A stretch of DNA of 63,575 nt, filler included, from Stramenopiles sp. TOSAG23-2 (lineage: Eukaryota), in assembly GCA_900128395.1 (NCBI GenBank). It is 16 parts of 16 records of this genome, joined end to end, with 100 filler letters (N's around TTAATTAATTAA, not from the genome) between each part and the next. Parts side by side here need not be neighbours in the genome. Positions count along the whole stretch, not along the records: positions 1 to 3,902 come from LT651053.1; 15 more parts are not named here. One strand, written 5' to 3'. The translations under genes and the position numbers were made by a program. The notes beneath the pieces are model-generated. The model ran no database searches, had not been told where the DNA came from, and was given only the letters and a program-made list of their open reading frames with translations. How positions within the stretch are numbered: the first letter of the stretch is position 1; each line of letters starts with the position of its first letter. Shown here one piece after another: positions 1 through 43,055 of the stretch.

Positions 1-57
1 GTAGGAATTATCATGAGTAAATTAAAAATAAATTATGCGTAAATTAAATTATATTTT
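1..57. repeat. Partial copy of the conserved non-coding element (contig edge)
   Basis: gtaggaattatcatgagtaaattaaaaataaattatgcg aligns nearly exactly with 32055-32096. Confidence 0.85.
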
Positions 58-403
58 TACCCATCATTATCATCATCAAACTCTAAATTATAAATCTATA
101 GACTGTGTATGCTGGTGTGCGCTTGCCAGAGTATTAGTATAAATATTATAGCACTGCACAGCACTAGTCATAGAAGAAGAAGAAAAAAGATACGATATAG
201 ATAATAATTTAATAAATTTAAATTGATAGTTCTCTCATTGGATTGGACACAAACACACACAACACACAAAATACAATAAAAGAAAAGAAATAAAACTTTA
301 CAAGCAAGAAAATACATTGAAAAGTGTATAAGAAAGATTAGAAAGAATTACAAGGTCGGTATCAAGACAAATTGTATCGTACATTCAAAAAGTATAAAAC
401 ATT

Positions 404-1445
404 ATGAGTAATTGGACGACTGTTTTGGATACAGCAGGCTTAGCTGTGGTTACTGGAGGCGCTAGCGGGTTTGGATATGAAACTTCAACTAGATTATTAA
501 AAGCAGGTATGGCTGTTGCTATCTTGGATATATCTATCAAAGAATTAGCTAATGCACAAAAATCACTTGGTGAGATTGCAGCAGCAAATAACACAAAGGT
601 TCATGGAATACAATGTAATGTGACAAAAAAAAGTGATTGTATCAATGCTGCTAATGAAATTGCAAAACATTTTCCTAATAAACAGATATCATTTTTGTTC
701 AATAACGCTGGCATTAATGGAAATGCAACTGGTGGTATTTTACAAAGTGACACTGAAGCATGGAAAGGTATCTTTGCTGTCAATGTATATGGTGCTGTAA
801 ATATTTTACAAGTATTTACAGACATCATAGTAAAACAAGGTAAATTGGCATCGGGTAAAAATGCACATGTTGTAACAACTTCTTCCGTTGTTGGCTTGTT
901 AAATCATAATCCTGGGTATGTATTCCTCTAAAAACTGAATGTAGAAATTAACTTACACTCTCTCTAACACACATCACTACTATTATACAAATTATAGAGG
1001 TTATTCCGTTTCAAAAATGGCAGCGACTGCAGTTTGTGAACAATATGCTATTGAACTTAGCGAAATGGGAGATAAAGCAAAACATATAGTTCCGCACTCA
1101 CTGCACCCTACAGCTGCAGCTACGAATTTTATGACACGAAGAACAGCAGATGGTAATAAAACTACTGGCGATGAATTTAAAAATTTTATCAAGGGAAACG
1201 GTGGCTCGACTGCAATTGATATTGTTGATGGATTATTTAATGGATTAGCAGGTGGTGAATATTACATTATTGTTGATAATCCAAATGATGTGCCAACTAG
1301 AAAACAAATTGAGAATCGTATGGCGGATCAAATTAAAAATATGAAACCTAGGAAAGCAGAACAAATTGCAAGTATCATGAATCGTCCTGTTGAAACAAAC
1401 ACATTGGTCAAAGCCACTACATCAGGTTGTATGAGTAATTTGTAA
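404..1445 (+). CDS. Short-chain dehydrogenase/reductase (SDR1), 2 exons 404-915 and 998-1445, 319 aa
   Basis: TGGASGFG nucleotide-binding motif and NNAG. Splicing GTATGT...TATAG (916-997) joins the two track ORFs in frame and restores the catalytic YSVSK (YxxxK). C-terminus is SNL. Confidence 0.92.
916..997 (+). other. Spliceosomal intron I1 (82 nt, phase 2), member of a repeated intron family
   Basis: GT-AG ends, CTAAC branch site, frame restored. Shares TCTCTCTAACACACA with the intron at 2382-2464. Confidence 0.9.
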
Positions 1446-1654
1446 GAATAAGATGTGATTTTGAGGATATGCATATTTGTGTATATATGATACGTATTAA
1501 TAATGAATTAACACTTTGTGATGCATCTCATACAATTTGATTTATGCACAATCATATATATTACATAATATAATATATATGAACATCGTATAATCTTTTC
1601 ACATATTTTTTTATAATATTTTATATGATATTAGAATATTATAACACCCTATCG

Positions 1655-1732
1655 TAGTGTGAGATAAATATTATTGTCTCAGTTATTGTATTCTTTTGAA
1701 GAGTAAGAATTATTTATATGAGTAAAATTAAA
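1655..1732. repeat. Conserved non-coding element directly 3' of the SDR2 stop codon
   Basis: tagtgtgagata...tcagttat.tgtattcttttgaagagta.gaattat...atgagtaaa aligns with 32011-32083. Confidence 0.85.
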
Positions 1733-2772
1733 TCACAAATGACTTTTTAGCAATTTAATTTCAAGTTCTCTTTCTGCTTTTTTATCTGGTGCAACCATCA
1801 TAGCTAGTGGCCTCGCTGGCCTTGGTCGTGTTTGGTTTATTTGATCAGCAACCCTTGCAGCAAGTTGTAGGCCTGTTGGTATATCCAATGGATGATCAAC
1901 AATTATGTATGCTTGATTCATATCCAAACCATTGAATAAACCATCGATAATGAAATCGGCGCTTACAGCCCCCATCTCTTTTGTCATAGCCTTTATAGAA
2001 CCTTTTTCGTCTCGTTTCTTGCCATCAGCATCGCGAAGCTCCATGAAATTGGTCGCAGCGGCTGTGGGGTGCAATGTGTGAGGAGCTATATGAATAGCTT
2101 TAGATCCCATATTTTCTAGTTCGATTGCATATTGCTCACATACAGCCGTTACCGCCATTTTAGAAACAGAATATGCACCAGGGTTGTGATTAAGCAATCC
2201 TACTACAGAACTTGTCGTAACAATATGAGTTTTCTTTCCGGATGCTAATGGACCAGCATCAATAATTGATTGTGTAAATGCTTGTAAAATATTTACCGCA
2301 CCATATACATTGACAGCGAAAATTGGTTTCCATGAATCAGTTGATTTTCCTAAAATATTGAAACCAGCATTCCCTTGTATTCTATATGGAGCATAGCATA
2401 TGAGTGAGTGTTGTGTGTTAGAGAGAATGGCTTCTATAGGTTTAGGGAATAGAATTTTACGCACCCGGCATTATTGAATAAAAATGATATCTTTTTGTTT
2501 TTAAATTCATTTGCAATTGCTTTTTGTGCAGCAGCACAATCATCCATGACTGTTACGTTACATTTAAAACCAAACACTTTTGCATGGTTTTGCTCTGCAA
2601 TTGGTGTTAATGTAACCTTTGCTGTTTGTAGTTCTTTTTCACTCACATCTAATATAGCAACTGACATACCATTAGATAATAATCGTTTAGATGTTTCATA
2701 TCCAAACCCGCTAGCCCCACCTGTGATCACAGCAAGTCCATTTTTATCGAACACATTTGGAAAGTTACTCAT
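1733..2772 (-). CDS. Short-chain dehydrogenase/reductase (SDR2), convergent paralog of SDR1, exons 2772-2465 and 2381-1733, 318 aa
   Basis: TGGASGFG, FNNAG|IQGNA after splicing, YSVSK. Strongly similar to SDR1. C-terminus is SHL. Confidence 0.92.
2382..2464 (-). other. Spliceosomal intron I2 (83 nt, phase 2), member of a repeated intron family
   Basis: GTGCGT...CCATATAG, frame restored. Alignable end to end with the intron at 32854-32932. Confidence 0.9.
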
Positions 2773-3154: not shown

Positions 3155-3571
3155 ATGGCAGAAATAAATAATAATAAAATAATGGTTCCACAAATTGATT
3201 CAGTTGTCATTGGAAAAGTCTTGCGGATATCAAGAATGTATGTAAGTGTTGAAATATTAATATTAGATGATAGCCCTGTACCATATCCATTTACAGGGAC
3301 AATACGTAAATTAGATGTAAGACAAAATGCAGTGGATGATATTAAGATTGAAATGTGTTATCGGCCAGGTGATATTGTAAAAGCTGAAGTTATATCATTA
3401 GGTGATCGAAGAAATTATTTATTAAGTACTGCAAAACCTGAATTAGGTGTATTAAATGGAAATAGTGAAAATGGGAATGATATGAAAGCAATAAGTTATT
3501 CAGAAATGGAAGATACCATTACAGGAGAGAAAGAAACTAGAAAAGTTGCTATGATAGATGTAAACAATTAA
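3155..3571 (+). CDS. CSL4: Exosome complex component Csl4 (S1 domain plus zinc-ribbon-like C-terminus)
   Basis: FTGTIRKLDVR, CYRPGDIVKAEVISLGD, YLLSTAKPELGV and ETRKVA are typical Csl4/EXOSC1 motifs. Confidence 0.9.
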   Translation: MAEINNNKIMVPQIDSVVIGKVLRISRMYVSVEILILDDSPVPYPFTGTIRKLDVRQNAVDDIKIEMCYRPGDIVKAEVISLGDRRNYLLSTAKPELGVLNGNSENGNDMKAISYSEMEDTITGEKETRKVAMIDVNN

Positions 3572-3709: not shown

Positions 3710-3856
3710 CTAATCATCATCAACATCATCATCTAAAATCAGATGTCCTTGTCGTTTCAAATATTCAATCACTTCATCTACGCATTCACTAACCTCTCTA
3801 TCTTGTGTTTTTAATTGAATTTCAGCATCTTCTGGCTCTTCATATGGATCATCCAC
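3710..3856 (-). CDS. C-terminal fragment of adenylylsulfate (APS) kinase, truncated by a chimeric junction (not in ORF track)
   Basis: Manual translation VDDPYEEPEDAEIQLKTQDREVSECVDEVIEYLKRQGHLILDDDVDDD* matches the CysC-type C-terminus. Confidence 0.75.
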   Translation of the reverse strand: MDDPYEEPEDAEIQLKTQDREVSECVDEVIEYLKRQGHLILDDDVDDD

Positions 3857-3899
3857 TGCATTTTGTCTTACATCTAATTTACGTATTGTCCCTGTAAAT
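3848..3899 (-). repeat. 52-nt exact inverted copy of Csl4 coding sequence 3289-3340 (fold-back chimera)
   Basis: Exact reverse complement. It joins the APS kinase fragment at the GATGAT junction. Confidence 0.9.
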
Positions 3900-3902
3900 A
3901 GA

Positions 3903-4259: not shown

Positions 4260-4395
4260 CATTTTTCAATAGTGAATGGTTTTATTTTGGAATTATGAAA
4301 ATCATTTTTCAATAGTGAATAGTGTTATTTTGGAATTATGAAAATCATTTTTCAATAGTGTATAGTGTATAGTTTTATTTTGGATTTATGAAAAT
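4260..4395. repeat. Tandem repeat, ~43-bp unit x3
   Basis: catttttcaatagtgaat.gt.ttattttggaattatgaaaat repeated with small changes. Confidence 0.85.
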
Positions 4396-4864
4396 GCACA
4401 AATCAACAACAACAACAACAACAACACAAAACAATCGAATGGCCCGAAAGCCCGAAAGCCCAAAGGCATTTTAATTTGTAAAAGGAGAGATGCACAGATC
4501 TGGGAGATGAGCTTGAGAGATATTCCCAATACATAAAGTGGAGGAGAAATATATTGTACATCCCCTGTGTTGTTTTCTTTTTTTTTGACTCGTATAAGAA
4601 ATCCAACAACCTATATCAAAATTTTTGAGAAAAAAAAAGAGAAAGAAGAACGAAGAATTACTTTTTTTTAAACCAACATTATATAATTATAATTACCAAA
4701 TTTCAAACATATTTATTGTTTTTTGAATTTTCAAGTGATTGTTATATAAATTATTACGGTGATAATTATATATACATATACATCAATTCATCATTTTTAC
4801 ATTTTTACAACAAAAGCATTAAAAAAATATATATAACTATCCATATAGATATTACAAAAATATA

Positions 4865-7433
4865 ATGGCATCCATAGCACGTAAATCAAGACGTGCAAAA
4901 CGACGTGAAAAACGTAAAGCAGCAGCCAATAATAATAATGATGAAACAGGATCTGTCACATCTACTGTAACAAATGATTCAACAACAACCACCAATAACA
5001 ACAACAACAACAACAAGACAGAAGACAGTAATAACAATTTATCCCCATCTTCACAAACAATTTTTAAAATATTAACAACAAATGGTACCGACCCAGATGT
5101 ATTACCTGAAGAAATATTAAATTATATTTCTTCTGCTGCTAGTGATAAATTAACATCAATTGATGATCTTGCATCTATTTTATCATCAATGGAAATTATA
5201 TCAACAACTGATAATGATGACGATGATGAAAATACTACAAAAATTGCAACAACTATCATCAATGCATTGAAACCAAAAGAAGATGATGGAAAAAAAGAAA
5301 AAATGGAAGATCATAAAAACAATCAATATAAAAATTTAGTACGTAATAAAGAATCTGCAGCATTAGCAATGTCTGCTTTATGGGGTATGAAAAAACTAAC
5401 TGTAAATGAAGGTATGAATGGTTGGGTACAAAATGGTGGTGCAACAATTGTAGATTGGTTAGCTAAAAATTCAAAATCAGGACGAAGACGTATACGTTTA
5501 GCAGCAAAGGAAGAAGAAAAGCGTAAGAAATTGTTAGATGAACATATTAAATATATTAAAATGTTACGACGAGCAGAAGCGGAAGCATATAAATCATTGC
5601 CATCTAAATTATTACCATCCTCATCTGCTAAACAAGATTTATTAATTGATGATTGTTCATTTAGTGCACCAGATGGTAAAATATTATGCGATAATGGACA
5701 AATACATTTAGTATATGGTAGAAAATATGGTTTGATCGGTAAAAATGGTGCTGGTAAAACGACATTATTACGTGCATTAGCCAAACGTATGTATATCATA
5801 TATCACATCACATATGTATATATCACATCACTTACCTATATATATATATATATATCGCATCTTTCACGTTTCATTGAAATAAATATATGACTAACATGTA
5901 TATATATATATACAAACATCGACGATCGTATTGTCACATACGGCTTCGCCTCCAATTGCCACTTTGATCTTATTGTCCATAGGCGATATTGATGGTGTTC
6001 CAGATGATTTAAGAATGGTACATGTATCACAAGAAATTGATGGTACTGATACCTCGGTATTACTATCCGTCATGTCATGTGATTATGAATTATTAGAAAC
6101 GAAAAAGGAGGAACAACGTTTATTAAAAGATCCAAATGCAGATCCAGATGAATTACAACAATGTATGGAAAAATTAGATTTATTAGAGGCTAGTACAGCT
6201 GAATCACGTGCAGTGAAAATATTATCTGGTTTAAATTTTTCAAAGGAAATGTTACATGTACCGACGAAACGTTTAAGTGGTGGTTGGAGACAACGTGTTG
6301 CATTAGCAAAAGGTTTATATTTAGAACCACAATTATTATTATTAGATGAACCGACGAATCATCTGGATTTAGAATCAGTGTTATGGTTGGAAAATTTTTT
6401 AATTGAATACGATAGTACATTAGTTATCGTTAGTCATGATCGTAATTTTTTAAATAATGTTTGTACGGATGTGATGCATTTAAATCGACAAAAGTTAAAA
6501 TATTATCGTGGTGATTATGAAAATTTTGTACAAGTAGTAGAGGAAGAGGAAAAACAACAAATGAAAAAATACGAAGCGCAACAGAAGAAACGTAAGCATA
6601 TGCAAGAATTTATTGATAAAAATCGATACAATGCAAGTAAAGCAAGTATGGCACAAAGTCGTATTAAAGCCATGGAGAAAATGGAGATTGTAGAAAATGT
6701 TCAAGTTGAAAATGGACTACGGTTTGATTTCCCAGATCCAGGTCCATTAGATGGACGATTTGTTACATTAACCGATGTGAATTTTAGATATTCAGAGAAA
6801 ACACCAATGTTATTTCAAGATGTTGATTTTAATTTATCAACAGAATCCCGTATTGGTTTAGTTGGTCCAAATGGCGTTGGTAAAAGTACATTATTAAATG
6901 TTATTTATGGATATAGTAAACCAAGTCGAGGTATTGTGAAACAAAATCCACGTTTACGCATCGGTGTTTTTTCCCAACATCATACCGAATCATTAGATTT
7001 ACGTTTAACACCATTGGAACAAATGCGCGTTGCATATGATGGATTTGCAGGTGCAAAAGGGGAGGAAAAAGCACGTTCGCAATTAAGTCGTTTTGGTGTT
7101 ACCTCACGTATGTGTACAAGACCAATTGTTACATTAAGTGGTGGACAAAAATCACGTTTAGTATTAGCCATGGTATTATGGAAAAAACCACATTTATTAA
7201 TATTAGATGAACCGACAAATCATTTAGATATGGAAACGATTTATGCATTAGCAGAAGCAGTGAATTCATTTAATGGTGGTGTCATCGTTGTTAGTCATGA
7301 TCAACATTTTATGAATATGTGTTTAAAAGAAACATATGAGATACGTAATAAAGCATTGGTGAAATTGGCAGGTGGTTTAGAAGATTATAAAAAGAAAGTG
7401 TTGAAGGATATGATGGGGAAGAAGAAACGGTGA
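4865..7433 (+). CDS. ABC-F family ATPase (GCN20/ABCF3-like), exons 4865-5786 and 5983-7433, 790 aa
   Basis: Two NBDs (GKNGAGKT/LSGGW/LLLLDEPTNHLD and GPNGVGKS/LSGGQ/LILDEPTNHLD) with no TM domain. Intron GTATGT...CATAG (5787-5982) restores the frame. Confidence 0.93.
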
Positions 7434-32010: not shown

Positions 32011-32110
32011 TAGTGTGAGATAGATTATTTCAGTTATTTGTATTCTTTTGAAGAGTAGGAATTATCACATGAGTAAATTAAAAAATAAATTATGCGAAAA
32101 AACTAAATAT
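32011..32110. repeat. Longest copy of the conserved non-coding element, 3' of the FAD oxidoreductase
   Basis: Aligns with both 1655-1732 and 1-57. Confidence 0.85.
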
Positions 32111-32116
32111 ATATAT

Positions 32117-32406
32117 ACATATTCTTCTCAAAAAAGCAAAAAACAGTGTGCAACAAAAGAAAGTCTTAAATTGCAAAAAATATATTCGCTTCTCTTTTAC
32201 CCAAGCACACTTCCACTGGTATCATTAATTTCACGCAATCTGGAAAAACTTTTAGTATTGACATATTCTTCTCAAAAAAGCAAAAAACAGTGTGCAACAA
32301 AAGAAAGTCTTAAATTGCAAAAAATATATTCGCTTCTCTTTTACCCAAGCACACTTCCACTGGTATCATTAATTTCACGCAATCTGGAAAAACTTTTAGT
32401 ATTGAC
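32117..32406. repeat. Exact 144-bp tandem duplication of the last codons and 3' flank of the FAD oxidoreductase
   Basis: 32117-32262 equals 32261-32406. Confidence 0.9.
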
Positions 32407-33787
32407 GTAAGTACCAGGATTTGATTTTTTTAATTCATATTGCATTGGTGTATTGTCGTGATCTAAATTTTGGTTTTCTACTGAATCAATTAAAGATGCC
32501 ATGAGGTCTCCTGCTACACCAGCATTTTTAAATTGATTACCACTAGTTCCAATTGCCATATAATAACCTCCAAGGGATGATTTATCATAAATTGGTGTCC
32601 AATCTGGTGTCACATCATATGCAGAAACAATTCCTTGTGTTTTACTTCCAGTTGGCAATGGTAAATTTGGAATTCTTAATGCGACACGATATATGTAATT
32701 TTGCCAATTTTCTGTTAAAGATAAATTCATATCTACATCTATATCGCCATCTACCCATTCTTCAGGGTCACAATCTGGCTCTGTCCCTCCAATCAAAATC
32801 TTATTTCCAACCTCTGGTCGCCAATATGCACCTATATCTAAATCAGTTGTGATCTGTGGGGCGTAGCGTATGAACGAGTAATGTGTTAGAGAGATACCCT
32901 TTTTAGGTTTAGGGGAATAGAATTTAACTTACCATTCCGTCAATATCCATATTAACACCTTCGGGAGGTTGACAATATGCAACTTCTTGTCTCATCGCTC
33001 TTGTTGTAACTTTCATGTCATTGGGGACAGAATTTTTATTTTCAGGAAAAGCTAATTTATTAATTAATGAACTTTTTGGCCCAGCAGCATTGACGACAAT
33101 TGGTGCACATATTTCAGTACCATCATTTAATGTTAAGCTTTCGACCTTGCCTTCTTTTTGATTAATGCTTGTAACAGTTTTATTATATAGAAATGTACCT
33201 CCATTTTTTTCTGCTGCAAATGCCAAATTCATTGTAGCCAATTGTGGGTCTGATACGTATCCTGTTTCTGGGCAATACACAGCACCTTCGACTTTGCTGT
33301 CTTGAATAGGTATACCAAACTTTGGATCGTCTATTCTTGCGGGTTTGTAAGAATGTGTTAAATCCCAACCGATTTTACCTAACTTCTCCTGTGCTGTTGC
33401 AAGATCCCATTCTACACATTTCACCCCTGCTTCAATCATACAAGGAACGCTTTTATCTAAAAAAGCTTTTGATTGTTCGGTGCGTATTAAAACACCGCCA
33501 CATTCTCTTAGTTTTGCAAATCCTCTTGGATCCTCAACATCTATAAAATTTTCCCAGTCTTTCCAGTAGTGATAACCCTCCCAGCTAAATTTCACACTAT
33601 CTAATATGGAGTAAAACATTCGGCAAATACCACTACTGTAAGATGTAGTTCCGTACCCAGCCCCAGCATTTGAATCAATATTAATAACATTATATCCTAA
33701 CCTAGATAAATGAAGTGATGTCGAAGAACCAATAACACCAGCACCAATGATTGCAACATCATATATTGTTTTAATCTTCTTCGCCAT
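32341..33787 (-). CDS. FAD-dependent oxidoreductase (DAO/sarcosine oxidase beta-like), exons 33787-32933 and 32853-32341, 455 aa
   Basis: IIGAGVIG, VVNAAGP, YDVTPDWTPIYD and GTSGNQFKNA. Intron GTAAGT...CACAG joins the two track ORFs in frame. Confidence 0.9.
32854..32932 (-). other. Spliceosomal intron I3 (79 nt, phase 0), member of a repeated intron family
   Basis: GT-AG ends, frame restored, homologous to I2. Confidence 0.9.
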
Positions 33788-33892
33788 TATTTTTACGTGG
33801 TTATAGTTACATAAATAATATATATGCGTTATATTTCAATTCTGATATAGTAATACATCTGACATCAAAATATACAATTTGCACATTTCTTA

Positions 33893-34077
33893 AAAAAAAG
33901 AAAAACAAATTTATTATTATTATATTTCCAACCAGCAAACTACTAGTACATGTAGTCTATAAAAAAAATAATTCTTTCGGCAAGGTGCCTAGAAAAAAGA
34001 AAAACAAATTTATTATTATTATATTTCCAACCAGCAAACTACTAGTAGTCTATAAAAAAAATAATTCTTTCGGCAAG
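33893..34077. repeat. ~90-bp direct duplication upstream of the oxidoreductase; the second copy has a small deletion
   Basis: 33893-33984 compared with 33993-34077. Confidence 0.85.
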
Positions 34078-36419
34078 CTGGCAAGCCCGGTAAATTTTAA
34101 AATGATGGCGGTGATGGCGATGGATTTTAGCACGACATAGCATTAAAATCACAAAAATCCCAAAACATTCTTACGAATAGGTTCACACTGTATTACAAAA
34201 CAGACAAATAACTTAAAAATAGGAAACATTTACACATAATATAATACAATACAAATATAATAATTAAGGTACATAATAATAAATATACATATAATTAAAA
34301 CATATAACAATACAATATATATACTACTAACTAGGAACATAGGAACATATACTACTCTAAGAATACATAAATCTAGAATAAAAATAAAAGAAAGAGAAGC
34401 GTCATGAGTATGAAGGTGAGGTAAGCCAACCCAGGTCTTACACTCAAGTAGGCTGTTAGACATCAAACGGACACCTATCAGAATAGCAGGTAAATATCAT
34501 TAAGCGTGACATTTTGATTTAAAAAAAAAAAATTAGCATGGGAATAGGCCGTAAAACTGCCCCTTCTTAGGTCCAAAAAAAAGTGTCGCGCGTAAATACC
34601 TGTAATATCAGGTGTTGGCGACATTTTAGAGTGGAAAAAATCAAGTGACCGTAAAAATATATTGGCAATATTTATATAGAATAGCATGGAATAGCATTGA
34701 AAATGAATAAAAAACATAAAAGACTACTAGTTTTCCAGTGGAAGTAACAAAAAACGTCCTATGTCTCTTGGATTATTTTAAATTTTGGTCTACATGTAGA
34801 CAAAAACTAACTAGCTTCAAAATAGCTTCATTTAAGGCACTTTTGTGATACTACTTCAAGTGGTAACAGAAATTATGGTTGCTTTTGTACTTGAATACAA
34901 CAGTATACAAAAGAAGATAGGGAATAAATTGGAAACAGTACATTCTGTAATATAACAAGCATCAAAAAGAAATTATTTTATGTATATGGACCAAAAAAAT
35001 ACACTAGTAAATGTTGCCTTAAAAATTCATAAGAGATTATTTTTTCTTTTCATTTCTTCTCCAATTATTTATTAATATTCTTTATAGTCTCCAATTATTA
35101 TATAGTCTCCAATTATATTATGATTTATTATTATTATTTAATATTTTTATTACTAATATTATTATTATTTATTATTTTTATTAATTAATTAATTAATTCA
35201 ATTATAATGCAATAGATTATTATGTTATACACTTATCAAATGTATTTTCATCTGTTATTAATCTGTATTTCATTTTCTCTTCATTGTATCTATTGCATTA
35301 TAATTTAATTAAAGTATTAATTATTATCATCATAATAAATAATACTGGAATAATAAAAATAACACTGTTGTCGTAATATAATATTTTTTGTGGTGGGTCG
35401 CCAGTAGTCGCCAGTGGAAGTTTAATATAAAATGGAACATAATGGTATAAAAATATGTATACAGATATTACTGTGTTGCCTATGTATATTATCAATTTAT
35501 GTCATGTGTTCTATCCATGATGGACAGAACCACTCCTGCATTATAAATTATAAGGCTCCCTACTAAAAGACTACGAACATATTGATATTAAATAGGTGGA
35601 CCGGAAAACTGTACCGTACAGAAATTCCGGTGATATGTTTGCTGTACTTGCTACAATATACAGTTGTTTAACTTTACCTATATATTTACATACATTTCTT
35701 TGGCTTACCCTAATACAATCCAAGCAAGCCAGAAAATAGATTCAAATAGACTATAGACTACTACTTTTCCAGTGGAAGTACACCAAAACTCCTATGTCTA
35801 AATTTGAATGTTTTGGCCACGCCGTGAAGGNNNNNNNNNNNNNNNNNNNNNNNNNNNNNNNNNNNNNNNNNNNNTTAATTAATTAANNNNNNNNNNNNNN
35901 NNNNNNNNNNNNNNNNNNNNNNNNNNNNNNTTATGTAATAAATAAATTATTGATTATTTCTCTTCTTAGTCTAAGTAGTTTTCACTTCTACAATATGTAT
36001 TGTTCTAGTTTACATATATATGAATTTACAAATGTGAAAATATCATCATTCCAATTTTATAATTATTAAATCTGGAAGTATCCGAAAATAACATAAGATG
36101 TTTGCAATGCTGTGTCTATGTTAGATGAAAATATACTAAAAGTATGACCGATTTCAAGAATTTTTCCTTGCGTAAGCTGGTAAGAATTTATTATTATTAG
36201 TAGATCTATATTATTGCAACTATTATTATATTAATCCAGCAGTAATATTATATTTTATTAGCATATAGTATTTACCAGAACCTGCATAAAAAAGCCTGCG
36301 TATTGATTGAAACGAGCTATATTGGTTGTGAATATATAGTATAAAAAGCAAATCCCTATTATTTGGTCAGCAATACCGATCAGGTGGGAAGCAGAGAAAA
36401 AAGTACTTATTTAATTACA

Positions 36420-38552
36420 ATGTCGAATGTACCGGAAACAACGACAATATCTGTAGATAAAAAAGACGTAGAATTAATTGAAACAACGATACCGTTGAAA
36501 AATAACAATGAATTAAAGGAACTGAAAGACATAAAAAAAACGAGAAATTCAACAAATATTTCAACTATGAATATTGTTAAGGACATAAAAAAAAACAAAA
36601 TTAAATGTTGGAATGTATTTCGGTGTCGTGGTTTGACATTAATTCTATTGACCATTGCAATCACGGTATTTCAATGGATTGTATTGTTTTCTTACACGCG
36701 AACTCCAAATGCCCCCTTTGCAAAGTTAGAAAGACCTTGGATGTGGGTATTTCTTATCATAGCACTTTTGTTTACTTTACTATTTATCTGGATTGTTTTG
36801 CGTTGGAAAGCTATTGCTTTGGGTACACTGAAATTATATCATGAAGAGAAAGAGGACCATCAGGAGAAAGCGGACCAGAAGAAGGTGGTGGAAGAAGTTG
36901 GCCAGGAGAAGGTGGTGAAAGAAGTGGGCCAGGAGAAAGGAAAGATAGTAAAGAAATTGATGCCTTTGAGAAATTTATACAACGATTACTTTGATATTAA
37001 TGGAAAGTATTATTTGTGGAAATTTCATACATCTGAATTCATCGAAAATTGGATTCAATATTATAATTTACAGCAAGTTTTTTTATGCACAATGCCTTTA
37101 GAATATACTCTTGTAGTATATTTTATTATGATATTAGAAACTGGAGGGAGAGCATTTGCATTTGGTAGATTGTTGTTTAAATCTTCCTCAGACACCACGA
37201 CGGTTGAATTTAGAGATTCGCTAGTGGTTTCAGATACAATTGTAGATGTATTTTTTTTGATTTACCCATTGGCAATTATTTACTTGGGGTTTCAAATAAT
37301 ATTGTTACCTGTCCAAGTATTGATAATGATCTCATCACCTAGCATTTCATTATTCAGTATGTTGCGAAATATGCTAATAGAAACAATTACTGTAAATATC
37401 GATAATCTAGTTATTTCATCGCAAGAACAAAGAAGTATGAAACGTGGCCGCCGACGTCTATCTTTATTTACAGCAGATCGAGAGACGAAAATTGCACGAT
37501 TACAAAATGCTCATTTTCCAAGATGGGCTAAGTTAAGTGTATTTGCTACAAGCTTGTTTTATTGGATTTTGATGATTATGACAGTTATAGTTCAAATTAG
37601 TAGTTATGGAGAAGTCGATGAAATTTGTAAATCAATATTGTCGATTGATCAAGATGTTTTGAAAACAGTTTGGAAAAAAGGTTGTAAAGTGAAGACACCA
37701 TATTGTAAAAATATGTTTGAACTAAATTGTGAAGATGGTTGTGCTTCAATAGAGATAAAAAATCATAACTTGACGAAATTGCCTGAAAATATAGTTAAAA
37801 TGACTAGGATGAAGACATTATCAATACAAAACGGGCCATTAAATATTTTACCTGCTGAAATGGAAAAAATGAAATACTTGACATTTTTAGACTTGAAACA
37901 TAATAACTTGAGAATATTTAATGTTGACATAACTAAATACGAATATCTGAACACATTGTATTTGAGTTTTAATAATATAACAACAATTGATAATAGTGTA
38001 TTTTTACATGAAACACTTCAGCAACTTTGGATTAATTCAAATATAGGATTGAACTTCCCATCGAAAATTAAGTTGCCATTTGTATTCTTTTTAGATGCAC
38101 GAAATAACTCTGTTGAAGTTCCTAATCTTGGAAGAGATCAGCTGCCAGCTATTTTATACTTGTATCTAAATGGAAATAAAATGCCAGGTGGAGTTATACC
38201 TGAAACATTCAATGAGCTATCTTCAACTTTAGTAAAAGTTGGGTTATCCGATTGCAAAATAAGATCATTGCCAGTCTATTTAAGTACTTTTGAGAAAATT
38301 CAGTATCTTGATGCAAGAAACAACTACATTGCAACAGTTCCTTCTGAAGTAACAAAATGGATTCAAGACAGAAGTATCGAAGCCTACTTCCATAATAATT
38401 CTTTGCTGTGTAAAAATGATGCAGAGAATTATGGAAAATCTTGCGAAGCTTTATGTAGCAAATATTGCTATGCAAAAGTGCACAAAAATAATTTTTGCGA
38501 CGATGTGTGTAATTCAAAAGAGTGTAATTACGATGATGGAGATTGTATATAA
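36420..38552 (+). CDS. Multi-pass membrane protein with C-terminal LRRs and an LNR (Notch-like) module
   Basis: About 6-7 hydrophobic segments, LxxLxLxxNxL repeats, and terminal CDDVCNSKECNYDDGDC. First ATG is at 36420 (track starts at TTG 36363). Confidence 0.85.
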   Translation: MSNVPETTTISVDKKDVELIETTIPLKNNNELKELKDIKKTRNSTNISTMNIVKDIKKNKIKCWNVFRCRGLTLILLTIAITVFQWIVLFSYTRTPNAPFAKLERPWMWVFLIIALLFTLLFIWIVLRWKAIALGTLKLYHEEKEDHQEKADQKKVVEEVGQEKVVKEVGQEKGKIVKKLMPLRNLYNDYFDINGKYYLWKFHTSEFIENWIQYYNLQQVFLCTMPLEYTLVVYFIMILETGGRAFAFGRLLFKSSSDTTTVEFRDSLVVSDTIVDVFFLIYPLAIIYLGFQIILLPVQVLIMISSPSISLFSMLRNMLIETITVNIDNLVISSQEQRSMKRGRRRLSLFTADRETKIARLQNAHFPRWAKLSVFATSLFYWILMIMTVIVQISSYGEVDEICKSILSIDQDVLKTVWKKGCKVKTPYCKNMFELNCEDGCASIEIKNHNLTKLPENIVKMTRMKTLSIQNGPLNILPAEMEKMKYLTFLDLKHNNLRIFNVDITKYEYLNTLYLSFNNITTIDNSVFLHETLQQLWINSNIGLNFPSKIKLPFVFFLDARNNSVEVPNLGRDQLPAILYLYLNGNKMPGGVIPETFNELSSTLVKVGLSDCKIRSLPVYLSTFEKIQYLDARNNYIATVPSEVTKWIQDRSIEAYFHNNSLLCKNDAENYGKSCEALCSKYCYAKVHKNNFCDDVCNSKECNYDDGDCI

Positions 38553-39213
38553 ATTTGTAAGTGTGAATTGCAAACGTGTTTCCATGTGGATTATTGTCCT
38601 GACAAAGTAAAAATGATTCCATGTGACATATACAAAATATACACCAGGTACCTACAATGACATTGAAGGATTACTAACACCATATACAAAAATATGTGAT
38701 ATTGGTAGAATACCAACTGTAATTCCTTCTAGTTGCACATTTTGCCCAGTGAGGAGGGAAGTAATAATAATAATACAGCAAGGAGAAGACCACCTGTAGA
38801 GTCAAATGATATTAAATTAAATGTTCAAAACCCAATGAACAATCGGAACAACAACAACAATGGCAGTGATGATGATGTTGATGATGAGGAAGCAAGGCGG
38901 CGTGCAAGAAGAGAACGACGTAGACGTAAAAGATGCGAATCAAAAAATTTAAAATTTCCAATTGGTTCAGTACGTACAAATGCATCACTACTGGAGTCGT
39001 CACCAATATCCGGGTAGTACTGATTTCTGATTTCCGTGCGCAGCGTGTCCTCACACAGTATTGACACAGAATGTTTTATTTAATACTAAATTTCCGCTTT
39101 TGTCATTTCAATGTTTTTTATTTTTGGCCATTCTTTGCCATTATTATATTGCACTATTTAGGTAATTTCACTTCTAAATTAGCTTTACATTTTTCCATTT
39201 TAATTTTTATGCG

Positions 39214-39279: not shown

Positions 39280-39898
39280 TTTCAATATTACAGGGATTAA
39301 GGGGTGTTTTTCAGTTAAAGAATAATAATTTCCAATAGTAATACGTTTTATTTTTAATTATAACTACACAGTATTGAATTTTCAGCGATATATTACATTA
39401 TCTATCAATATTTTGAGAAGTGTATGTAGTTGCTGTACTTGGTAAAAAAAAAATGGCCGTTGGGAGACGATGCTTCTTTGTTTGCCTTTTTATTTTATGT
39501 TTTTTATTTCGAAACAAAGATAGTCAATAGGAGGAGAGAGTGTAAACACCATCTTTTATTCATAAAAGAGTTAGTTGCATTTATTGTTATTATATTTGTA
39601 TATTTTGTACGCGAGCGCGCGCGTGTGTGTGTGTGTTGGAGAGAAAAAAAAACAATACCTTGTGCTTGTAGTCGTATATACTTTTCCTGATTTATAAATT
39701 AATTAACAAATAAATTAATATGGTGTATAATTTAAAACGTCTATTATCCGATTGCTCGAAACGAAAATGGAGAATACGAAGGTTGAAAAAAAATGTACNN
39801 NNNNNNNNNNNNNNNNNNNNNNNNNNNNNNNNNNNNNNNNNNTTAATTAATTAANNNNNNNNNNNNNNNNNNNNNNNNNNNNNNNNNNNNNNNNNNNN

Positions 39899-40371: not shown

Positions 40372-40471
40372 NNNNNNNNNNNNNNNNNNNNNNNNNNNNN
40401 NNNNNNNNNNNNNNNNNNNNNNNNNNNNNNNNNNNNNNNNNNNNNACCTAATGAATTTTCATTTGGAAAGA

Positions 40472-42605: not shown

Positions 42606-43055
42606 AAAAATGAAATATAATATAAATAATCATATATATATAATACTTGTTGCACTCAAAACAATTAATGCATATTAATATAGATAGATAGAAAAATAGA
42701 AACAACGGAAAGAGATGATGGACGAAATCTTAATCTGGTGTACAGTGTATGATGTGTTTGTACTTTTTAAAAAAAATAAATATATTTAAAATATACAACA
42801 CAGAAATTTGTATTTTATATATCTCTCTCTAAGAAAACACTCTGATTCACTCTCTTTCTTCTGTTTTTCACACCACTTTTTAAAAGATCTTATTTTTTCA
42901 TTTGAATGACATTTTTTCAACTAAAAACTACTTCTTTTATATTAAACTAAAAGAGGTGCAAAGAAAATGAATAAATGGAAATAGAAGACTGAGAGATACC
43001 GGAGATAAAAAAAAGAGACAGAAAAAAAAAGAAAGAGAGAAAATAAAATCAAAAC

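What the first reader, a model, noticed from the sequence alone, without database searches (positions are those of the whole stretch)
2382..2464. Introner-like family: homologous 79-83 nt introns in unrelated genes
Seen: I2 in SDR2 (GTGCGTAAAATTCTATTCCCTAAACCTATAGAAGCCATTCTCTCTAACACACAACACTCACTCATATGCTATGCTCCATATAG) aligns end to end with I3 in the FAD oxidoreductase on another contig (32932-32854: GTAAGTTAAATTCTATTCCCCTAAACCTAAAAAGGGTATCTCTCTAACACATTACTCGTTCATACGCTACGCCCCACAG). I1 (916-997) shares TATTCC.CTAAA and TCTCTCTAACACACA. Similarity goes well beyond splice signals, and the ABCF intron is unrelated. All three sit at exonic G|A junctions. I see no terminal inverted repeats or target-site duplication. 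I2 and I3 carry a telomere-like CCCTAAACCTA. Established: repetitive introns (Introners) cause mass intron gain in some marine protists and fungi. Inference: a new TIR-less intron-generating element, accounting for 3 of the 4 confident introns here.
Basis: partly seen in the sequence, partly recalled or inferred. Interest (0 to 1): 0.8.

Follow-up and report, generated by a model that had tools for sequence, protein, structure and literature searches.

The report
Short repeated intron family, shared with virus
A marine protist carries a family of related 70-88-base introns in unrelated genes, and the same intron sits in only some copies of a giant-virus-like gene in the ocean, which points to introns that were copied into new genes fairly recently.

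Summary
I2 (2382-2464, -) and I3 (32854-32932, -) align end to end: 57 of 83 columns, local-alignment z 17.9, 0 of 1000 shuffles as good. I1 shares only two blocks and is a marginal member.

A three-block pattern found two more members in public metagenome contigs. One is in a GNT-I-like glycosyltransferase gene (L001). The other is in a poxvirus-A22-type resolvase gene on a giant-virus-like contig (L002). Leave-one-out profiles recover each of the four core members (E 4e-8 to 5e-11). Three non-family introns show no similarity.

All five copies are sense-strand GT..AG introns. They have no terminal inverted repeats, no target-site duplication, no stable fold and no Rfam match.

Evidence for gain:
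- The paralogs SDR1 and SDR2 carry their introns at different positions.
- Homologs of the FAD oxidoreductase are uninterrupted at the I3 site.
- Of 39 in-clade viral A22 protein sequences, 24 are uninterrupted, 8 read into the family intron, and 7 stop at the same codon.

Genome-wide copy number could not be measured. Reads laid at 80% likeness or more showed no pile-up.

Verdict: a real introner-like family, a new member of a known kind, with an interesting virus link.

The parts
2382..2464 (-). I2: family intron (83 nt, phase 2) in SDR2. Boundaries GTGCGT...ATAG.
   Evidence: Sequence. adh_short profile positions 3-85 end exon 1 and 85-188 start exon 2. RNA contigs stop at 2377 and restart at 2468, with no joint listed. 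Leave-one-out nhmmer E 2e-09.
32854..32932 (-). I3: family intron (79 nt, phase 0) in a DAO-type FAD oxidoreductase. Boundaries GTAAGT...ACAG.
   Evidence: Sequence. Exon 1 and exon 2 join exactly as ...DIDGM|ITTDLDIGAYWRPE when aligned with uninterrupted homologs. Leave-one-out E 6.9e-10.
916..997 (+). I1: diverged or marginal family intron (82 nt by reading frame, phase 2) in SDR1. One RNA contig uses the AG at 998-999 instead, skipping 84 nt.
   Evidence: Sequence. Joint 914->999, GT..AG, 1 contig of run X15 with 30 letters on the short side. Leave-one-out E 0.011 and pairwise z 4.3-7.7.
2414..2426 (-). Invariant 13-nt branch-site block TCTCTCTAACACA in I2. The same block lies at 959-971 (+) in I1 and at 32882-32894 (-) in I3.
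   Evidence: Exact matches. The block is identical in 5 of 5 family members. Non-family introns carry only CTAACA.
2437..2457 (-). 5' block AAATTCTATTCCC(C)TAAA(CC) of I2. The I3 equivalent lies at 32904-32925.
   Evidence: 22-nt match at 95% between I2 and I3. The block is also present in the L001 and L002 introns.
1733..2772 (-). SDR2 gene (short-chain dehydrogenase), host of I2. It is a convergent paralog of SDR1.
   Evidence: Pfam adh_short on both exons. Paralogy is shown by the blastn coordinates and inverted repeats I1 and I2.
404..1445 (+). SDR1 gene, host of I1. It has no intron at the place that corresponds to I2 (about 711/712).
   Evidence: Pfam adh_short positions 3-140 on exon 1. 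Colinear blastn matches are window 736-915 with 2178-2357 and 658-711 with 2465-2518, obtained through L003 and L004.
32341..33787 (-). FAD-dependent oxidoreductase (DAO family) gene, host of I3.
   Evidence: Pfam DAO positions 1-217 on exon 1 and 249-353 on exon 2. Homologs.
5787..5982 (+). Non-family comparison intron (196 nt) in the ABCF gene.
   Evidence: Sequence. ORF join. No similarity to the family.

Best explanation
These are members of one family of short (70-88 nt) spliceosomal introns that descend from a common source sequence. That sequence has been copied into unrelated genes, so this is an introner-like element.

Each copy is the whole intron and nothing more. It brings:
- its own 5' splice site (GTRNGT or GTTCGT);
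- a 16-18-nt block, ATTCTATTCCCCTAAA;
- an invariant block, TCTCTCTAACACA, holding a CTAAC branch site about 30-40 nt before the 3' AG;
- a G-poor tail, ACTCATTCATATGC...CAG.

Insertion neither duplicates the target nor adds or removes codons.

Shown here:
- homology of 4 core copies, plus 1 diverged copy, in 5 different genes;
- sense orientation only;
- precise interruption of conserved protein alignments;
- removal of I1 from RNA;
- different positions in two paralogs;
- presence or absence of the intron at one codon of a giant-virus-like A22 resolvase gene across closely related sequences.

Inferred, not shown: how it moves. The copies end exactly at GT..AG, all lie on the sense strand, and none has terminal inverted repeats or a target-site duplication. 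I therefore think the most likely route (about 40%) is RNA-level: reverse splicing of an excised intron into a transcript, followed by reverse transcription and recombination. That is the route proposed for fungal introner-like elements. A DNA-level insertion that leaves no footprint is the alternative.

The invariant branch-site block is best explained by selection for splicing after insertion.
For: Family and new members:
- The three-block pattern occurs 3 times in the window and 0 times in 100 shuffles.
- In metagenome contigs it hit 4 loci. L003 and L004 are the contig-1 locus in other assemblies (100% and 96.6% identical). L001 and L002 are new genes.
- Controls: 0 hits in viral contigs. 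1 hit in 596 billion bases of prokaryote genomes, which has no intron context.
- Leave-one-out nhmmer over 74.5 kb gives I2 2e-09, I3 6.9e-10, L001 intron 5.3e-11, L002 intron 4.4e-08 and I1 0.011.
- All 6 core pairs have z 11.6-17.9, with 0 of 1000 shuffles as good. The 15 pairs of a family intron with one of the 3 non-family introns have z -0.6 to 2.4.
- No antisense or intergenic copy turned up in the window, L001 or L002.

Host genes:
- They are unrelated: adh_short, DAO, GNT-I plus WSC, and Pox_A22.
- Contig 1 also carries an exosome EXOSC1/CSL4 gene, so it is nuclear DNA.

Precise interruption:
- The adh_short profile runs 3-85 then 85-188 across I2.
- The FAD oxidoreductase junction matches uninterrupted homologs residue for residue.
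- L002 exon 1 plus exon 2 equals the 176-aa uninterrupted proteins.

Splicing: an RNA contig joins 914->999 across I1.

Gain:
- SDR1 and SDR2 (about 70-74% nt identity) each lack the other's intron.
- FAD oxidoreductase homologs at 78, 77, 63, 61 and 50% identity are uninterrupted. One of them lies on a 10,188-nt contig.
- Of 48 A22 sequences seen, 43 could be classed: 28 uninterrupted (4 of them distant homologs at 53-63%), 8 ending G[SEA]YILF[PF]stop (read-through into the family intron), and 7 ending GN or GR then stop at the same codon.
- Uninterrupted forms lie on contigs up to 30,161 and 29,713 nt. Intron forms lie on contigs up to 79,871 and 39,852 nt. Both are therefore DNA.
- On a tree of the first 140 residues the intron state needs at least 5 changes. 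Well-supported branches force at least 2.
Against: Copy number is unknown and may be small:
- No whole genome was available.
- The exact-pattern scan of the metagenome collection found only 2 new members.
- Contigs of two DNA metagenomes that hold this organism at about 8x and 16x, laid at 80% likeness or more, show flat depth over I1. Over the I2 bin they show only 17.4 against about 11-13, and 39 against about 16-34.
- Because members are only 59-69% identical overall, that test would miss most of them.

No recent activity is seen in the protist itself:
- I1 and I2 are present and identical (0 differences in 165 nt) in a strain whose exons differ at 11 of 1923 sites.
- No DNA contig lacking I1 or I2 was reported.

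Other weaknesses:
- L001 and L002 were found with a pattern drawn from the window's own three introns, so 24 of their matching bases are there by construction.
- Splicing is shown only for I1, by one contig, and at an AG that breaks the reading frame.
- That L001 and L002 come from this organism or its virus is inferred from composition and from the intron itself.
- Nothing here shows the mechanism.
Confidence: 0.78

Rival explanations
1. The shared blocks are extended, lineage-specific splicing signals: a long branch-site consensus plus an intronic enhancer. Selection would then hold them in otherwise unrelated introns, with no copying involved.
For: The 13-nt block holding CTAAC is identical in 5 of 5 members while the rest differs by 31-61%. 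That points to selection on the block. Non-family introns also carry CTAACA far upstream of the 3' AG.
Against: Three introns of the same or similar genomes lack the 5' block, the TCTCT...CACA flanks and the 3' tail. They are ABCF 5787-5982, the second intron of the L001 gene, and the candidate at 38557-38732. Their z against family members is -0.6 to 2.4. In the core members similarity runs the whole length, spacers and tail included. The intron is present or absent at one site in near-identical viral alleles.
Confidence: 0.07
2. This is an old, no longer mobile intron family. The copies were made long ago and are now ordinary introns. The viral polymorphism reflects intron loss or recombination among virus strains, not new gain.
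For: Members are only 59-69% identical. There is no presence/absence difference for I1 or I2 between two strains, and none in two DNA metagenomes. There is no pile-up of near-identical copies.
Against: The more distant A22 homologs (53-63% identity, 4 of 4) are uninterrupted. All 8 intron-bearing sequences fall inside one supported clade of 28, so the intron was gained within that young clade. This rival differs from the best explanation only in timing.
Confidence: 0.12
3. The conserved sequence is an intron-borne functional RNA (snoRNA, mirtron or other), and the introns look alike because they host it.
For: Blocks are conserved inside introns of unrelated genes.
Against: There is no Rfam match at gathering scores in 79,289 bases. 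Only two chance-level matches (E 3.2 and 8.4) appear at E up to 10 around I1 and I2. Folding energies are no better than shuffles, with z -0.67 to +1.06 for the 5 members. The sequences contain only 6-11% G.
Confidence: 0.03

Closest known systems
Introners, as surveyed across eukaryotes (Gozashti et al. 2022, PMC9860276; 2025, PMC12130899)
   Same: Groups of introns in unrelated genes are alike over their full length but not in the flanking exons. They are enriched in aquatic protists. Many families lack target-site duplications or terminal inverted repeats: 49 of 130 had duplications and 72 of 177 had inverted repeats (passages read).
   Different: Copy number is unknown here. Members are very short (70-88 nt) and already 31-41% diverged. 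Their blastn E-values (about 1e-7 against 63 kb) would lie near the 1e-5 cut-off of that pipeline at genome scale. I could not see the papers' supplementary species and family lists. This organism or family may therefore already be catalogued.
Fungal introner-like elements (ILEs; PMC3609843 and PMC4457414, abstracts seen in the listing)
   Same: The copies end exactly at the splice sites, lie on the sense strand only, and have no target-site duplication or terminal inverted repeats. They degenerate toward ordinary introns. An RNA-level route has been proposed for them.
   Different: ILEs are described as longer than regular introns, with stable predicted folds and hundreds of copies. These are shorter than the 3 non-family introns (103-196 nt), show no stable fold, and their number is unknown.
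Introners in integrated dsDNA viral elements and candidate introners in mirusviruses (PMC12166617, abstract and results read; PMC12768974, passages)
   Same: An intron of a host-type repeated family sits inside a gene of a large dsDNA virus. Viruses have been discussed as vectors.
   Different: Those cases are in dinoflagellate genomes or within single mirusvirus genomes. The mirusvirus study found no match between viral introns and a eukaryote introner database. Here a viral-gene intron matches nuclear introns of a protist, and the site is polymorphic across closely related sequences on contigs up to 80 kb. Whether those contigs are free virus or integrated copies is not known.

Membership tests
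Introner / introner-like element | Several introns in non-homologous genes are alike over the whole intron, and the likeness stops at the exon borders. | tested here: met
   There are 4 core members plus 1 marginal one, in adh_short (two genes, at different positions), DAO, GNT-I and Pox_A22 genes. Alignments end at GT and AG.
Introner / introner-like element | Many copies per genome (tens to thousands). | not testable with these tools
   No genome is held. There are 3 copies in 62 kb of the window. The metagenome pattern scan found 2 more. There was no pile-up at 80% likeness or more.
Introner / introner-like element | Evidence of recent gain: empty sites in close relatives or within populations. 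| tested here: met
   In the A22 clade, 24 sequences are uninterrupted against 8 with the family intron, including within one 90%-identity cluster. SDR paralogs carry their introns at different sites. FAD oxidoreductase homologs are uninterrupted. This was not met for I1 and I2 within the protist.
Introner / introner-like element | Removed by the spliceosome in vivo. | tested here: inconclusive
   I1: one polyA-RNA contig skips 916-999 with GT..AG ends, 2 nt past the frame-keeping AG. I2: RNA contigs stop at both borders, but no joint is listed. I3 and the L001 and L002 introns were not tested.
DNA-transposon-type introner (Micromonas/Aureococcus type) | Target-site duplication and/or terminal inverted repeats; copies in both orientations. 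| tested here: not met
   Inspection of the 5 insertion sites shows no shared flank repeat of 3 nt or more. No inverted repeat lies within the elements. All 5 of 5 are on the sense strand.
Fungal ILE | Stable predicted secondary structure; longer than regular introns. | tested here: not met
   z-scores are -0.67, 0.11, 0.60, 0.51 and 1.06. Lengths are 70-88 nt against 103, 176 and 196 nt for the non-family introns.
Known intronic RNA family (Rfam) | Match to a curated covariance model. | tested here: not met
   0 matches at gathering scores. Only E 3.2 and 8.4 chance-level matches were found nearby.

The most novel reading that the evidence does not exclude
An intron-generating element is currently moving between the nucleus of an uncultured marine protist and a giant virus that infects it. 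On this reading, the virus population carries the element as an insertion polymorphism in an essential resolvase gene. The virus must therefore use the host spliceosome, and it could ferry the element between hosts. The shared intron family would also serve as a sequence tag linking an uncultured virus to its host.
Probability: 0.25. Interest if true: 0.85.

Novelty: new member of a known kind. Interest (0 to 1): 0.62.

Why it matters
Repeated intron families are the clearest window on how new spliceosomal introns arise.

This family is unusually small and plain. It is a bare 70-88-nt intron with no transposon hallmarks, and it sits near the detection limit of published pipelines. Similar families may therefore be under-counted in intron-poor protists.

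The A22 case gives an empty site and a filled site in close relatives of a viral gene, in natural populations. That is the material needed to read the insertion footprint and so the mechanism. It also bears on the recent proposal that large DNA viruses carry such elements between hosts. A shared intron family could further be used to pair uncultured viruses with their hosts.

Tried and rejected
- Whole-genome search: no genome is held.
- Copy number from laid contigs: flat depth on I1 and about 1.5-2.5x on the I2 bin at 80% likeness or more. Because members are only 59-69% alike, this says only that there is no large set of near-identical copies. It says nothing about the size of the family.
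- Parts of contig 1 without RNA cover, and the RNA contigs ending at 2377 and 2468, are weak hints only.
- IMG/VR: the three-block pattern gave 0 hits. The 16-mer ATTCTATTCCCCTAAA gave 13 loci, and none of the 13 has the rest of the element. A22 exon 1 has no relative there.
- Prokaryote genomes: 1 chance hit, in a Bacillota MAG.
- Telomere idea: no array of any of 8 tested repeat units is in the window. CCCTAAACCTA is under two units long, so the link is left as unsupported.
- Target-site duplication: I1 starts GGGTATGTATTCC and the exon after it starts AGGTTATTCC. This is a single case and is not seen at the other four sites, so I rejected it as a rule.
- Weak profile hits at 39622-39679 and 42817-42854 are low-complexity upstream sequence, not members.
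- Taxon of the organism: the best named ABCF hits are trypanosomatids, a bicosoecid and oomycetes, all at 46-47%. The protein atlas gave only 'Eukaryota'. I leave it as an AT-rich marine protist, possibly a stramenopile.
- Two single-cell-genome papers held nothing on intron families.
- Literature: searches for 'introner' with marine, single-cell and stramenopile terms, with 'giant virus', and alone listed no paper describing this family.

Full report
**What the window is.** The 63,575 bases are 16 contigs of 3,858-3,902 nt, sorted by length. They are joined by N44-TTAATTAATTAA-N44 spacers. GC content is 28-38%. The genes are eukaryotic: Ctf4/Mcl1, ABCF, Ric8, Kelch+SRCR, LRR+CHAT+helicase, DHHC, the complex I 49-kDa subunit and EXOSC1/CSL4. 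Contig 1 is found in many marine DNA runs and in polyA metatranscriptomes. The best named ABCF relatives are trypanosomatids, a bicosoecid and oomycetes at 46-47%. I call the organism only an AT-rich marine protist.

**The observation.**
- I2 and I3 align end to end, with 57 of 83 columns identical.
- blastn gives 77% over 75 nt, E 2.7e-07.
- The local score is 60 against 14.8 +/- 2.5 for shuffles, and 0 of 1000 shuffles reach it.
- I1 shares TATTCC.CTAAA and a 20-nt stretch around TCTCTCTAACACA. Its pairwise z is 4.3-7.7. A profile built without it finds it only at E 0.011, so it is a marginal or diverged member.
- The three-block pattern TATTCCN{0,2}CTAAAN{8,38}TCTCTCTAACACA hits exactly these three places and none in 100 shuffles.

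**More members.** The same pattern found 4 loci in the metagenome contig collection.
- L003 (100% identical) and L004 (96.6%) are the contig-1 locus in other assemblies.
- L001 and L002 are new.
- In L001 (31% GC) the element is an 87-nt phase-1 intron (1135-1221) in a GNT-I-like glycosyltransferase that also has a WSC domain. The same gene has a second, unrelated intron (1395-1497).
- In L002 (36% GC) the element is a 70-nt phase-1 intron (4345-4414). It splits the GAT codon in ...DDLC|D|AFLIAYYG of a Pox_A22 RuvC-like resolvase.
- Controls: 0 hits in IMG/VR. One hit without intron context in 596 billion bases of prokaryote genomes. All 13 hits of a 16-mer in IMG/VR were chance matches.
- Leave-one-out profiles recover I2, I3 and the L001 and L002 introns at E 2e-09, 6.9e-10, 5.3e-11 and 4.4e-08.
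- Caveat: L001 and L002 were found with a pattern taken from the window. However, their likeness extends outside the pattern's 24 bases.

**Anatomy.**
- Every copy runs exactly from GT to AG.
- All five share an invariant TCTCTCTAACACA about 30-40 nt before the 3' AG.
- The four core copies share ATTCTATTCCC(C)TAAA near the 5' end.
- I2, I3 and the L001 intron also share a tail like ACTCATTCATATGC.
- The sequences are 6-11% G.
- They have no terminal inverted repeats and no target-site duplication.
- They fold no better than shuffles, with z -0.67 to +1.06.
- They have no Rfam match.
- Phases are 2, 2, 0, 1 and 1. The exon base before the intron is G in 5 of 5. The base after it is A in 4 of 5.
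- Three non-family introns carry GTAAGT or GTATGT and CTAACA but none of the other blocks, and score like random sequence against the family. They are ABCF 5787-5982, the second L001 intron, and a candidate at 38557-38732. The CTAAC core is therefore the general branch signal, and the rest is family-specific.
- No intergenic or antisense copy was seen in 74.5 kb.

**Are they introns, and are they spliced?**
- The adh_short profile runs 3-85 on SDR2 exon 1 and 85-188 on exon 2.
- The FAD oxidoreductase exons join residue for residue with uninterrupted homologs.
- L002 exon 1 plus exon 2 equals the 176-aa uninterrupted A22 proteins.
- One polyA-RNA contig (run X15, depth 6.3, 30 letters on the short side) joins 914->999 with GT..AG ends. 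I1 is thus removed, but at the AG two bases past the frame-keeping one. This may be a tandem TAG/AG acceptor or a contig quirk.
- For I2, RNA contigs of two runs end at 2377 and restart at 2468, each with 20 unplaced letters. No joint is listed. That is only a hint.

**Evidence for gain.**
1. SDR1 and SDR2 are convergent paralogs, about 70-74% identical in nucleotides. Their alignment is colinear across both intron sites, and each lacks the other's intron.
2. FAD oxidoreductase homologs at 78, 77, 63, 61 and 50% identity are uninterrupted at the I3 site. The 63% homolog lies on a 10,188-nt contig. The two closest lie on contigs of 2,137 and 1,573 nt, whose DNA or RNA origin I cannot tell.
3. 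The A22 gene. I saw 48 related protein sequences, 12 and 36 cluster members. Only 15 of the 32 members of one cluster were listed.
 - 5 are fragments and 43 could be classed.
 - 28 are uninterrupted. 4 of these are distant homologs at 53-63% identity.
 - 8 end G[SEA]YILF[PF]-stop, which is the read-through of GT.{4}ATATTCTATTC....
 - 7 end GN- or GR-stop at the same codon.
 - All three forms occur inside one 90%-identity cluster.
 - Uninterrupted forms lie on contigs up to 30,161 and 29,713 nt. Intron forms lie on contigs up to 79,871 and 39,852 nt. The GN form lies on contigs up to 297,791 nt. All of these are therefore DNA.
 - All 8 intron forms fall in one supported clade of 28. There they are mixed with uninterrupted forms in at least three subgroups. 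The state needs at least 5 changes on the tree, and well-supported branches force at least 2.
 - The ancestral state is intronless. The intron entered within a young clade and has since spread or been lost, probably helped by recombination.

**Evidence against recent activity in the protist.**
- A strain whose exons differ at 11 of 1923 sites has both I1 and I2, unchanged.
- The two DNA metagenomes show no contig lacking them.
- Depth of contigs laid at 80% likeness or more is flat over I1. It is only about 1.5-2.5x over the I2 bin.
- Members are 59-69% alike, so that test cannot see most of the family. It does exclude a large set of near-identical copies.
- The exact-pattern scan found only 2 new members. 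How much of this genome the collection holds is unknown.
- Genome-wide number is therefore open.

**The L002 contig.** It has dense short genes on both strands. Besides the A22 resolvase it encodes an HNH endonuclease, a RING protein and a small MutS-domain-I protein. It looks like part of a large dsDNA virus. Some mirusviruses also encode a Holliday junction resolvase, so I do not place it further. I also cannot say whether these contigs are free virus or integrated copies. Its link to this protist rests on the shared intron family alone.

**Mechanism.** What is shown is copying of a self-contained intron into new sites without a footprint. How that happens is inferred. Sense-only copies that end exactly at the splice sites, without inverted repeats or duplications, fit an RNA-level route as proposed for fungal introner-like elements. 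The lack of a stable fold and the small size differ from those elements. The invariant branch block, set against 31-41% divergence elsewhere in the core members, argues for selection on splicing after insertion.

**Comparison with what is known.**
- Introners are established in about 5% of surveyed species and are enriched in aquatic protists. Many families lack duplications or inverted repeats (PMC9860276, passages read).
- Introners inside integrated viral elements, and giant viruses as possible vectors, are in print (PMC12166617, abstract and results; PMC12130899, passages).
- Candidate introners within mirusvirus genomes had no match to eukaryote introners (PMC12768974, passages).
- This is therefore a new member of a known kind. 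Its particular points are the very short, diverged element and a viral-gene copy that matches nuclear introns and is polymorphic in nature.
- My three literature searches listed nothing on this family. Supplementary lists were closed, so prior cataloguing cannot be excluded.

Noticed in passing
window 1-63575: The window is not one locus. It is 16 contigs of 3,858-3,902 nt in descending length, joined by N44-TTAATTAATTAA-N44 spacers. A separate 74-N gap lies at 40372-40445.
   Followed up: yes
window 996-999: I1 has a tandem acceptor, TAG|AG. The reading frame needs the AG at 996-997. The only RNA contig uses the AG at 998-999, which would shift the SDR1 frame and stop it after 13 codons.
   Followed up: partly
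L002 4345 (and proteins P0128, P0148, P0160, P0163, P0164, P0167, P0168): A second class of A22 alleles (142 aa) ends GN-stop or GR-stop at the very codon where the family intron sits. These alleles lie on contigs up to 297,791 nt. This may be another intron, or a variant of the same element, at the same site.
   Followed up: partly
L002 1-7684: A giant-virus-like marine contig with dense genes on both strands. It encodes a Pox_A22 resolvase, an HNH/endonuclease VII-like protein, a RING finger protein, a stand-alone MutS domain I protein of about 100 aa, and several ORFs without matches. IMG/VR holds no close relative of the A22 exon.
   Followed up: partly
window 3286-3340 and 3848-3902: A 55-nt inverted duplicate (98% complementary) of part of the EXOSC1/CSL4 gene lies at the very end of contig 1. 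It looks like an amplification or assembly chimera.
   Followed up: no
window 1-131 and 1573-1834: Thousands-fold pile-ups of metagenome contigs occur at 80% likeness. Loose ends lie at 1679 and 1713, and joints link 1696-1714 to 1-24. The shared piece resembles ATGAGTAAATTAAA, found at 10-49 and about 1717-1733, next to gene ends. It may be a very common AT-rich signal, a repeat, or plain low complexity.
   Followed up: no
window 32024-32410 and 33775-34140: The stretches just downstream and upstream of the FAD oxidoreductase gene each contain a tandem duplication. Repeated peptide strings in the ORF translations show this. The unit is about 144 nt in the first stretch.
   Followed up: no
window 404-2772: SDR1 and SDR2 are convergent paralogs, tail to tail and 288 nt apart, about 70-81% identical in stretches. 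An exosome CSL4 gene lies next to them.
   Followed up: partly
window 38505-38732: The long LRR/LNR-domain ORF stops 5 nt before a good GTAAGT...TTACTAACACC...TCTAG intron candidate (38557-38732). This may be a 3'-UTR intron, or the gene may continue through a different donor.
   Followed up: no
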